Shown: positions 20,001 to 23,000 of the stretch, in pieces
Position numbering within the stretch: the first letter of the stretch is position 1
Layout of the letters: each line of letters opens with the position of its first letter
Source: Escherichia coli
GTDB lineage: Bacteria > Pseudomonadota > Gammaproteobacteria > Enterobacterales > Enterobacteriaceae
Reading direction: 5' to 3' (one strand)
Assembly: GCF_017348835.2 (NCBI RefSeq)
Contig: NZ_CP071375.1
DNA length: 64,000 bases
Made by a program: the position numbers

Positions 20001-23000
20001 TCTGGGGCGTGGTGAAACCGTTGGGCAAGAACTGGCGGGTAACCCAAAGGTCGCAATGGTCAGTATGACAGGCAGCGTCTCTGCAGGTGAGAAGATCATG
20101 GCGACTGCGGCGAAAAACATCACCAAAGTGTGTCTGGAATTGGGTGGTAAAGCACCAGCTATCGTAATGGACGATGCCGATCTTGAACTGGCAGTCAAAG
20201 CCATCGTTGATTCACGCGTCATTAATAGTGGGCAAGTGTGTAACTGTGCAGAACGTGTTTATGTACAGAAAGGCATTTATGATCAGTTCGTCAATCGGCT
20301 GGGTGAAGCGATGCAGGCGGTTCAATTTGGTAACCCCGCTGAACGCAACGACATTGCGATGGGGCCGTTGATTAACGCCGCGGCGCTGGAAAGGGTCGAG
20401 CAAAAAGTGGCGCGCGCAGTAGAAGAAGGGGCGAGAGTGGCGTTGGGTGGCAAAGCGGTAGAGGGGAAAGGATATTATTATCCGCCGACATTGCTGCTGG
20501 ATGTTCGCCAGGAAATGTCGATTATGCATGAGGAAACCTTTGGCCCGGTGCTGCCGGTGGTCGCATTTGACACGCTGGAAGATGCTATCTCAATGGCTAA
20601 TGACAGTGATTACGGCCTGACCTCATCAATCTATACCCAAAATCTGAACGTCGCGATGAAAGCCATTAAAGGGCTGAAGTTTGGTGAAACGTACATCAAC
20701 CGTGAAAACTTCGAAGCTATGCAAGGCTTCCACGCCGGATGGCGTAAATCCGGTATTGGCGGCGCAGATGGTAAACATGGCCTGCATGAATATCTGCAGA
20801 CCCAGGTGGTTTATTTACAGTCTTAATGAGTGAAAGAGGCGGAGGTTTTTTCCTCCGCCTGTGCGCGTCAGAGTTTAGCGAATTTTTCGAGGGTGCGAAT
20901 AAGCTGCGTGACGAAGCCATATTCGTTATCGTACCAGGCGACCGTTTTCACCAGTTGTAAATCGCCCACGGCGGTAATTTCCGTTTGCGTGGCATCAAAC
21001 ACCGAACCGAAATGGCTGCCAATGATATCGGAAGAGACTATTTCTTCATCGGTATAACCAAATGACTCGTTATTGGTGGTTGCTTGTTTAAGTGCGTTAT
21101 TCACCTCTTCGGCAGTCACTTTTTTTCCGAGAATCGATACCAGTTCAGTGACCGAACCTGTTTTCACCGGCACGCGTTGCGCATGACCTTTCAGTTTGCC
21201 GCTCAGTTCCGGGATCACCAGACCAATGGCTTTTGCCGCGCCCGTAGTGTGGGGAATGATATTTTCTGCCGCTGCGCGTGAAGCACGTAAATCTTTACCA
21301 CGCGGGCCATCCACCAGTGACTGGGTGCCAGTATAGGCATGAATGGTCGTCATCGTGCCGACTTCTATCCCGAAACTGTCATGCAAGGCTTTGGCCATCG
21401 GCGCAAGGCAGTTAGTGGTGCATGACGCCACGGAAACAATGGTGTCGTTGCCATCCAGAGTGTCGTCATTAACGTTATAAACGATGGTTTTCATTTCACC
21501 GGCAGGAGCGGAAATCAACACCTTCTTCGCGCCAGCATCAAGATGCGCCTGCGATTTCTCGGCGGAGGTATAAAAGCCAGTACATTCGACAATGATTTCT
21601 GCACCTTTCGCTTTCCACGGAATATTTTTAGCCTCTTTTTCGGCGTAAACCGCGATACTTTTCCCATTAACGATAAGTGAATCTTCCGTAAAATCAACGC
21701 TCCAGGGGAACGGACCATAGTTTGAATCATGTTTCAGCAGATAGGCGAGAATTTTTGGGGAAGTAAGATCATTAATAGCGACAACGTCTATGTTGCTTTT
21801 GACTTCAAGTAATCGACGCAACACCAGTCGACCGATACGACCAAAACCGTTAATACCAACTTTACTCATGGTTTTCTCCTGTCAGGAACGTTCGGATGAA
21901 AATTGATCCTTTCCAGGCTTAGACCAGGATGGCGGGATGGGCAATCTCCATTCTTACAGTGAAACGTAACGTACTGAAAACGGGTGAACAATATTTAATG
22001 AAATTTTGAGAAAAGCCCGTTATGTTAACGGAAAATTATGTTAAAGCAGGAAATGTTATGGAAAATAAATACTCAAGGTTACAAATCAGCATTCACTGGC
22101 TGGTCTTTTTGCTGGTTATCGCAGCGTATTGCGCAATGGAGTTTCGTGGTTTCTTCCCACGTAGCGATCGGCCACTCATCAACATGATTCATGTTTCCTG
22201 TGGCATCTCAATTCTCGTGCTGATGGTGGTTCGTCTTTTGTTAAGACTGAAATACCCAACCCCGCCGATTATACCTAAGCCGAAACCGATGATGACGGGA
22301 CTGGCGCATTTGGGACATTTGGTGATTTATCTCCTGTTTATTGCGCTGCCAGTGATTGGTTTGGTGATGATGTATAACCGAGGCAACCCGTGGTTTGCGT
22401 TTGGTATGACGATGCCTTACGCTTCAGAGGCCAATTTCGAACGGGTAGATAGCTTAAAGTCGTGGCATGAAACGCTGGCGAATCTGGGATACTTTGTCAT
22501 CGGGTTGCACGCTGCGGCCGCACTGGCACACCACTATTTCTGGAAGGACAACACACTTCTACGCATGATGCCGCGTAAACGTTCCTGAAGGATATTTAAA
22601 GAAAACGCCTGTACTAAAACCGACCCGTGGTACAGGCGAAGAATACGGGTCTACATCGGAAGCGCCTATTATATTTATTTGTATGACAAATAAAACCATA
22701 ATCCTTGCCCATACGTCCATCTGGCTTATTTTTAATCAATTCACCCGATCTTTGATCTCATCAACGGTATCAAAATAAACCAGCGTATAACGTTCAAATC
22801 GAACATAAGATTCGATAAACCATGGAGGTTATATGAAAAAACTAGCACTTATTTTGTTTATGGGAACGCTTGTTTCCTTTTATGCCGATGCTGGGCGCAA
22901 ACCCTGTTCTGGTTCGAAAGGGGGGATCTCACACTGTACGGCAGGCGGCAAATTTGTCTGTAATGATGGTTCTATTAGTGCCTCGAAAAAAACATGCACT

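What the first reader, a model, noticed from the sequence alone, without database searches (positions are those of the whole stretch)
22599..22662. RydC sRNA between cybB and ydcA
The 64-nt minus-strand sequence matches the Hfq-dependent sRNA RydC as I recall it, including its 5' pseudoknot region and intrinsic terminator. It is not visible in the ORF track.
Basis: partly seen in the sequence, partly recalled or inferred. Interest (0 to 1): 0.3.

Follow-up and report, generated by a model that had tools for sequence, protein, structure and literature searches.

The report
Known E. coli small RNA RydC
This 64-base stretch is the already well-studied E. coli regulatory RNA gene rydC, letter for letter the same as in the laboratory strain K-12, so the finding is correct but ordinary.

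Summary
The observation and the interpretation both hold. Window 22599-22662 (minus strand) is a full-length match to Rfam RF00505 RydC (92.5 bits, gathering score 48, E 5e-17). It is 100% identical to the curated rydC gene (b4597) of E. coli K-12 MG1655, in the same place between cybB and ydcA. The window is E. coli: it differs at 2 of 49,958 bases from strain PE164. 5,411 of 5,426 complete E. coli genomes carry one copy.

The two interleaved helices of the published pseudoknot are present. In 12 homologs, helix 2, which is also the terminator stem, shows compensatory changes at 4 of 9 pairs. Helix 1 is almost invariant. The single-stranded 5' seed is invariant and pairs with the K-12 cfa leader at -109..-99.

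The promoter has a perfect TATAAT and no -35. Across its spacer lies a 15/15 match to the published YieP repressor motif. K-12 and about 23% of E. coli genomes have a one-base weaker version.

Two small corrections. The 5' end is an unpaired seed, not the pseudoknot. The terminator hairpin is itself one helix of the pseudoknot.

Novelty: already known. Interest: low.

The parts
22599..22662 (-). rydC gene: 64-nt Hfq-dependent sRNA RydC. RNA nt n corresponds to window position 22663-n. The K-12 annotation adds one more 3' base, 22598.
   Evidence: Rfam RF00505, 92.5 bits, model 1-64/64. 100% identical to K-12 b4597.
22650..22662 (-). 5' seed (nt 1-13, CUUCCGAUGUAGA). Nt 1-11 are unpaired; nt 12-13 overlap the start of helix S1.
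   Evidence: Nt 1-12 are invariant in 12 homologs. Nt 3-13 pair with the K-12 cfa 5'UTR at -109..-99, -17.7 kcal/mol, matched by 2 of 1000 shuffles. Nt 1-13 are sufficient for cfa regulation according to PMC4337610, citing Frohlich 2013.
22645..22651 (-). Pseudoknot helix S1, 5' arm (nt 12-18, GACCCGU).
   Evidence: Seven Watson-Crick pairs with nt 35-41. It matches the Rfam consensus structure. Nearly invariant, with one A-U to G-U change.
22622..22628 (-). Pseudoknot helix S1, 3' arm (nt 35-41, ACGGGUC).
   Evidence: G37 and G39, whose mutation destabilises RydC in vivo (PMC4337610), are present.
22630..22638 (-). Pseudoknot helix S2, which is also the terminator stem: 5' arm (nt 25-33, CGCCUGUAC).
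   Evidence: Nine pairs with nt 49-57. 100% of cells are paired across homologs and 4 pairs show compensatory double changes.
22606..22614 (-). Pseudoknot helix S2, which is also the terminator stem: 3' arm (nt 49-57, GUACAGGCG).
22599..22605 (-). 3' U-rich tail (nt 58-64, UUUUCUU): end of the intrinsic terminator and the Hfq proximal-face binding site.
   Evidence: The sequence shows it directly. Its role is taken from the RydC-Hfq crystal structure paper PMC4337610.
22639..22640 (-). Loop dinucleotide U23/U24, an Hfq rim contact.
   Evidence: Present in the sequence. Its function is taken from PMC4337610.
22616..22617 (-). Loop dinucleotide U46/U47, an Hfq rim contact.
   Evidence: Present in the sequence. 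Its function is taken from PMC4337610.
22668..22673 (-). rydC promoter -10 hexamer TATAAT (-11..-6). There is no recognisable -35.
   Evidence: Direct read. The consensus scan finds no two-hexamer promoter. PMC11340327 gives the same description.
22675..22693 (.). 19-bp inverted repeat TTATTTG-TCATA-CAAATAA across the promoter spacer (-31..-13). Its core, 22677-22691 read on the + strand (ATTTGTATGACAAAT), is a 15/15 match to the published YieP motif. It is the inferred YieP operator.
   Evidence: It is the only exact match in the 64 kb window. The motif atTTGTaTGAcaAAT comes from YieP ChIP-exo (PMC7642389). YieP represses rydC about 20-fold (PMC11340327). The motif core sits at the same distance from the -10 in 11 of 12 homologs across three lineages.
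22687..22687 (.). The only difference from K-12 in 221 nt: G on the minus strand (C on the + strand) here, A (T) in K-12. It lies inside the YieP motif, at a low-information position.
   Evidence: Allele counts: 4173 genomes match the window-type promoter and 1239 the K-12 type.

Best explanation
This is the rydC gene of E. coli. It is an independent transcription unit on the minus strand, convergent with cybB and divergent from ydcA.

Shown here: the sequence, its family membership, its pseudoknot pairing, its seed complementarity to cfa, and its promoter anatomy.

Taken from published work on the identical RNA:
- RydC is transcribed from a sigma-70 promoter with a perfect -10 and no -35, and is normally kept off by the GntR-family repressor YieP.
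- The 64-nt RNA folds into an H-type pseudoknot whose second helix doubles as the intrinsic terminator.
- Hfq binds the 3' U-tail and the two UU loop steps and stabilises the RNA.
- The exposed 5' seed pairs with mRNAs. Pairing at about -109..-99 of the long cfa transcript protects it from RNase E and from Rho-dependent termination, which raises cyclopropane fatty acid synthase. Pairing represses csgD, yejABEF, trpE and pheA.

Inferred here: the 15-bp palindrome at -29..-15 is the YieP operator, and it works by blocking RNA polymerase.
For: - Full-length Rfam RydC hit: 92.5 bits against a gathering score of 48.
- 64/64 identity to the curated K-12 rydC, with the same aldA-gapC-cybB-rydC-ydcA-hokB-trg neighbourhood.
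- One copy in 5411 of 5426 complete E. coli genomes.
- Homologs in other Escherichia species and in two further lineages from metagenomes all score 81-91 bits.
- Pseudoknot pairing: S1 has 7 bp and S2 has 9 bp, and the two are interleaved.
- 98.7% of cells are paired across 9 distinct sequences, against 24-45% when the partners are slid. S2 has 4 compensatory pairs.
- Seed nt 1-12 are invariant and complementary to the K-12 cfa leader at the published position.
- Hfq determinants U23/U24, U46/U47, G37/G39 and the U-tail are all present.
- The promoter has a perfect TATAAT plus an exact YieP motif.
- Published functional data: PMC4337610, PMC3985669, PMC11340327.
Against: - No expression data exist for this strain.
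- RydC is barely detectable in wild-type K-12 under standard conditions because of YieP repression. Presence of the gene therefore does not show that the RNA is made.
- The nested minimum-free-energy fold is not unusual (z = -0.48). Thermodynamics alone gives no support.
- Helix S1 has no compensatory changes. Within this analysis it rests on conservation only.
- The cfa pairing was tested against the K-12 cfa leader, not this strain's, because cfa lies outside the window.
- YieP binding to this palindrome has not been shown directly. One ChIP-exo study did not list rydC.
Confidence: 0.97

Rival explanations
1. The stretch matters mainly as DNA or RNA structure at the end of cybB: a bidirectional terminator for the convergent cybB transcript, with the sRNA a by-product.
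For: The RydC 3' end (22599) lies only 10 nt from the cybB stop codon (22588), and the two genes converge. The 9-bp G+C-rich S2 hairpin exists on both strands.
Against: - On the + strand the hairpin is followed by GAAGAATACGG, with no T-run.
- The terminator scan finds no + strand site there.
- The invariant 5' seed, the dedicated promoter and the published trans-acting phenotypes are not explained by a terminator role.
- At most this is an additional minor role.
Confidence: 0.03
2. The interval is part of a small protein-coding gene on the minus strand: the mechanical ORFs 22559-22720 (53 aa) or 22614-22739 (41 aa).
For: Both ORFs appear in the six-frame list.
Against: - Both start codons lie upstream of the -10 box and of the mapped +1, so they are outside the RydC transcript.
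- The homolog L059 carries two separate 1-nt insertions inside the region, which would shift the reading frame.
- Substitutions come in base-pair-preserving doublets, not at synonymous sites.
- Sequence upstream of the promoter is not conserved between lineages.
Confidence: 0.01
3. The gene is intact but is a silent relic in this strain: never de-repressed, with no physiological role.
For: Wild-type K-12 makes almost no RydC under laboratory conditions. The signal that releases YieP is unknown. This strain has the stronger 15/15 operator.
Against: - The gene is strongly conserved in sequence in 5411 of 5426 E. coli genomes and in other genera.
- Helix S2 shows compensatory evolution and the promoter is conserved. 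These indicate ongoing selection.
- Deleting rydC lowers cfa reporter activity even in wild-type K-12.
Confidence: 0.03

Closest known systems
RydC sRNA of E. coli K-12 MG1655 (b4597; Rfam RF00505; crystal structure with Hfq in PMC4337610)
   Same: All 64 nucleotides, the strand, the flanking genes cybB and ydcA, the -10 box, the pseudoknot helices, the seed and the Hfq contact nucleotides.
   Different: There is one base difference, 25 nt upstream of +1 (window 22687), inside the YieP motif. It makes the motif a 15/15 match here, against 14/15 in K-12. The K-12 annotation is 65 nt and the Rfam model is 64 nt.
RydC homologs of other Escherichia species and of two other lineages (L004, L016, L028, L039, L041, L046; L059; L056-L060)
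   Same: Nt 1-12 are identical. Helix S1 is the same apart from A13G in three sequences. The loop Us, the U-tail and the position of the YieP-like palindrome next to the -10 are shared.
   Different: The top three pairs of helix S2 are UAC/GUA here and CGU/ACG in the other two lineages, and G26-C56 becomes A-U in L056-L060. All these changes are compensatory. L059 is 66 nt. L056-L060 have a TATACT -10 and carry the palindrome in the opposite orientation. The genera of the metagenome loci were not determined.
Other sRNAs acting on the cfa leader (ArrS, CpxQ) and other Hfq-dependent sRNAs
   Same: They share the general logic: a 5' or internal seed, Hfq dependence, and a Rho-independent terminator with a U-tail. 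ArrS also activates cfa.
   Different: RydC is unusual in folding as a pseudoknot that incorporates the terminator stem. No sequence relation to these sRNAs was tested or claimed.

Membership tests
RydC (Rfam RF00505) | Covariance-model score at or above the curated gathering score (48 bits), over the full model | tested here: met
   92.5 bits, E 5.2e-17, model 1-64/64, not truncated.
RydC (Rfam RF00505) | Sequence identity to the experimentally characterised E. coli RydC | tested here: met
   64/64 identical to K-12 b4597.
RydC (Rfam RF00505) | Conserved locus: next to cybB and convergent with it; ydcA on the 5' side in E. coli and Shigella | tested here: met
   cybB at 22058-22588 (+) and ydcA at 22833-23006 (+). 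The published synteny description is in PMC11340327.
RydC (Rfam RF00505) | H-type pseudoknot of two interleaved helices (S1 and S2) | tested here: met
   S1 is nt 12-18 with 35-41 and S2 is nt 25-33 with 49-57; all are standard pairs. Across homologs 98.7% of cells are paired, with 4 compensatory pairs in S2. S1 is conserved without covariation.
RydC (Rfam RF00505) | Exposed, conserved 5' seed complementary to the long cfa 5'UTR | tested here: met
   Nt 1-12 are invariant. An 11-bp duplex forms with K-12 cfa at -109..-99, -17.7 kcal/mol, matched by 2 of 1000 shuffles. This strain's own cfa lies outside the window.
RydC (Rfam RF00505) | Hfq binding and Hfq-dependent stability | not testable with these tools
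   The sequence determinants (3' UUUUCUU, U23/U24, U46/U47) are present. Binding itself needs an experiment.
RydC (Rfam RF00505) | Expression as a ~64-nt transcript from its own promoter | not testable with these tools
   A perfect TATAAT lies at -11..-6, and an intrinsic terminator is present (S2 plus the U-tail). No transcript data are available.
YieP (GntR/FadR-type) regulon operator | Match to the ChIP-exo-derived palindromic motif atTTGTaTGAcaAAT in a position that overlaps the promoter | tested here: met
   15/15 match at 22677-22691 (+), which is -29..-15 of rydC, and the only exact hit in 64 kb. The motif is from PMC7642389.
YieP (GntR/FadR-type) regulon operator | Physical binding of YieP and loss of repression when the site is mutated | not testable with these tools
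   YieP represses rydC'-lacZ about 20-fold (PMC11340327). rydC and ydcA are listed among selected YieP targets (PMC7642389). No site-level experiment was found.

The most novel reading that the evidence does not exclude
The palindrome at -29..-15 is the YieP operator of rydC, which has not been pinned down in print, and it may also serve divergent ydcA. Its natural polymorphism would then set strain-specific levels of RydC, and so of cyclopropane fatty acid synthase and acid tolerance. About 77% of E. coli genomes carry the window-type promoter (the exact 15/15 motif is confirmed in 3395 of them), and about 23%, including K-12, carry the 14/15 form.
Probability: 0.2. Interest if true: 0.25.

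Novelty: already known. Interest (0 to 1): 0.06.

Why it matters
For genome annotation, the case shows that automatic pipelines leave rydC unannotated. PGAP records show nothing under the match, although the gene is in practically every E. coli genome. Biologically nothing new follows: RydC, its structure with Hfq, its targets and its repressor are all published. The only mildly useful by-product is the exact placement of a consensus YieP site over the rydC promoter spacer, together with a common natural variant of that site. This gives a simple testable handle on how tightly different strains repress RydC.

Tried and rejected
- **Genome-contig scan.** I used CTTCCGATGT-N11-CTTCGCC to collect cross-genus homologs. 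It returned only six Escherichia loci and 47 hits in unrelated taxa, close to my own estimate of about 35 chance matches for 17 specified bases.
- **Metagenome-contig scan.** A looser pattern that excludes the E. coli C33 gave five loci in two further lineages. I did not determine their genera. The TATACT -10 of L056-L060 fits what PMC11340327 says of Citrobacter koseri, but this is only a lead.
- **Frohlich et al. 2013 (PMC3831309).** This is the primary cfa paper and it is not held. Its results are cited second-hand through PMC4337610 and PMC11340327.
- **Exact-complement search.** Searching the seed against the cfa leader found nothing of 7 nt or more, because the duplex contains a G-U wobble. 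Full-length RNAduplex in the same call was uninformative. The seed-restricted duplex gave the published site.
- **Single-sequence folding.** It recovers only S2 and has an unremarkable z-score, so it cannot serve as evidence.
- **Promoter and terminator scans.** The promoter scan misses the promoter because there is no -35. These are limits of the scans, not evidence against the features.
- **Supplement of PMC7642389.** It gives no coordinates for the YieP site at rydC.

Full report
**1. The observation**

The minus strand of window 22599-22662 reads CTTCCGATGTAGACCCGTATTCTTCGCCTGTACCACGGGTCGGTTTTAGTACAGGCGTTTTCTT. A scan of the whole window against the 4227 Rfam families at gathering thresholds returned two hits. 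One is RF00505 RydC at exactly these coordinates and on this strand. It covers model positions 1-64 of 64 and scores 92.5 bits against a gathering score of 48, with E = 5.2e-17.

**2. Origin and context**

- A 1.6-kb stretch around the site matches 5417 of 5426 complete E. coli genomes. It is 100% identical to two pig isolates.
- The first 49,958 bases of the window differ at only two positions from strain PE164, NZ_CP114128.1 2440843-2490800. That record's gene table therefore applies directly to window coordinates.
- The local gene order is aldA, gapC, cybB (22058-22588, +), the RydC interval (-), ydcA (22833-23006, +), yncP, hokB (-) and trg.
- The curated K-12 MG1655 record annotates an ncRNA rydC (b4597) at the corresponding place.
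- An alignment of 221 nt shows a single difference from K-12, and it lies upstream of the RNA. All 64 nt of the RNA are identical.
- The 64-mer occurs once in 5411 of 5426 E. coli genomes, and 4063 of these are at least 99% identical. PGAP-annotated records list no feature there.

**3. Anatomy of the RNA**

Direct pairing checks give two helices:
- Helix S1 is nt 12-18 with nt 35-41, seven Watson-Crick pairs. The eighth pair in the Rfam structure, 11-42, is A·G here.
- Helix S2 is nt 25-33 with nt 49-57, nine pairs.

The arms interleave (S1-5', S2-5', S1-3', S2-3'), so this is an H-type pseudoknot. Nested folding recovers only S2, followed by UUUUCUU. Its energy is unremarkable (z = -0.48), so thermodynamics is not evidence here.

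S2 plus the U-tail is the intrinsic terminator. The simple terminator scan misses it because its loop is 15 nt. The first ~11 nt are unpaired seed, and the terminator stem is itself half of the pseudoknot.

**4. Comparative test**

- A genome scan gave six loci from other Escherichia lineages.
- A metagenome scan gave five loci in two further lineages.
- All eleven score 81-91 bits on the Rfam RydC model.

In the 12-sequence alignment, nt 1-12 are invariant. Counting the pseudoknot pairs on it gives:
- 98.7% of cells form standard pairs, against 24-45% when the 3' partners are slid by 1-3 columns.
- S2 is 100% paired, with compensatory double changes at 4 of 9 pairs: G-C to A-U, U-A to C-G, A-U to G-C and C-G to U-A.
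- S1 has six invariant pairs and one A-U to G-U change. It is supported by conservation only. Outside this analysis it is supported by the published G37C/G39C destabilising mutant and the crystal structure (PMC4337610).

The sample is small: nine distinct sequences in about three lineages. The compensatory changes may therefore represent only two or three events.

**5. Mechanism**

The following is published for this exact RNA:
- RydC needs Hfq for stability.
- Hfq contacts the 3' U-tail and the U23/U24 and U46/U47 steps.
- Nt 1-13 suffice to regulate cfa (PMC4337610).
- RydC represses csgD translation and affects yejABEF (PMC3985669).
- It activates cfa by stabilising the long mRNA isoform and by blocking Rho-dependent termination. 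It modestly represses trpE and pheA.
- It is transcriptionally repressed about 20-fold by the GntR-family factor YieP. FnrS represses yieP, and OmrB antagonises RydC (PMC11340327).

All the cited determinants are present in the window. As a direct check, seed nt 3-13 form an 11-bp duplex with one G-U pair with the K-12 cfa leader at -109..-99. The energy is -17.7 kcal/mol, reached by 2 of 1000 shuffled seeds. The strain's own cfa lies outside the window, so this step is by proxy.

**6. Promoter**

- +1 is the C at 22662.
- A perfect TATAAT lies at 22673-22668 (-11..-6).
- There is no -35, as published.

Between them lies a 19-bp inverted repeat, TTATTTG-TCATA-CAAATAA (22693-22675). Read on the + strand, its core at 22677-22691 is ATTTGTATGACAAAT. 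This matches the YieP ChIP-exo motif atTTGTaTGAcaAAT at 15 of 15 positions (PMC7642389). It is the only exact match in the window.

The motif core keeps the same distance from the -10 in 11 of 12 homologs. In L056, L058 and L060 both outermost bases of the 19-bp repeat have changed together (T..A to C..G), and the asymmetric centre is flipped.

I infer that this is the YieP operator and that it acts by occluding RNA polymerase. The 2024 paper did not define a site, and it notes that one ChIP-exo data set lacked rydC. The 2020 paper lists rydC and ydcA among selected YieP targets, but the held text gives no coordinates.

The single difference from K-12 (22687) falls in this motif, at a low-information position, and gives K-12 a 14/15 match. 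A 50-nt promoter query of the window type matches 4173 genomes, 3395 of them exactly. The K-12 type matches 1239. With a central mismatch megablast cannot seed, so the two sets are essentially disjoint, and they sum to the ~5411 rydC carriers.

**7. Rivals**

- A bidirectional-terminator role for cybB is unlikely as the main function. The + strand hairpin has no T-run and no + strand terminator is detected.
- The mechanical minus-strand ORFs start upstream of the promoter. They are also incompatible with the indels and the pair-preserving substitutions seen in homologs.
- A silent relic is contradicted by the conservation and the compensatory evolution.

**8. Verdict**

The finding is correct and fully explained by existing knowledge. 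It is the known rydC gene, identical to the K-12 reference.
- Novelty: already known.
- Interest: low (0.06).
- The only by-product of some use is the exact YieP consensus site in the promoter and its common variant.

Noticed in passing
window 22675-22693 (core 22677-22691, + strand): A perfect 7+5+7 inverted repeat lies across the rydC promoter spacer. Its core matches the published YieP ChIP-exo motif at 15/15 positions. K-12 and about 23% of E. coli genomes carry a 14/15 variant (T instead of C at + strand 22687). In the L056, L058 and L060 homologs the palindrome is kept, but in the opposite orientation and with both outer bases changed.
   Followed up: yes
window 23222-23373 (-): The second Rfam hit, RF01794 'sok antitoxin', scores 108 bits and lies on the minus strand. 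That is the strand of the hokB/mokB mRNA leader, and the hit ends at the hokB AUG (23227). K-12 annotates the antisense sokB on the + strand (about window 23275-23331). The Rfam match therefore marks the hok leader and Sok target region rather than the Sok RNA strand. PGAP annotates no sokB here.
   Followed up: partly
window 20868-21869 (-): gapC is an intact 333-aa glyceraldehyde-3-phosphate dehydrogenase ORF here and in strain PE164. In K-12 MG1655 it is annotated as a pseudogene (b4493).
   Followed up: partly
window 23078-23227 (-): HokB differs from the K-12 protein at residue 3 (MKR... here, MKH... in K-12).
   Followed up: partly
window 2296-3041 and 9256-10569 (+): In the near-identical PE164 record, paaC is annotated as frameshifted and paaK as having an internal stop. 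The phenylacetate degradation operon may therefore be defective in this strain. I did not check these in the window beyond its 2-in-49,958 identity to that record.
   Followed up: no
window 13285-13410: pdxI (ydbC) is followed by a 72-nt gene fragment and then azoR. I recall that K-12 has ydbD and ynbABCD between these genes; that was not checked here, but if so they are absent from this strain.
   Followed up: no
window 34314-36021: An IS200/IS605 element with a tnpA pseudogene (internal stop) and an intact insQ (TnpB-family RNA-guided endonuclease), as annotated in PE164.
   Followed up: no
L057:201-245 (upstream of the RydC homolog): One metagenome homolog, on a 1.2-kb contig, has a normal RydC and TATACT -10. 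The left half of its YieP-like palindrome is replaced by unrelated sequence (ttaattataacagCAAATgg), which suggests a rearrangement breakpoint inside the operator.
   Followed up: no
(genome-contig scan): No Salmonella or Citrobacter genome was returned, and I did not recognise the main E. coli representative genome among the hits. The pattern is present in nearly all E. coli genomes. Either the representative genome has a variant or the scan does not cover everything. Absence from that scan should not be read as absence of rydC.
   Followed up: no
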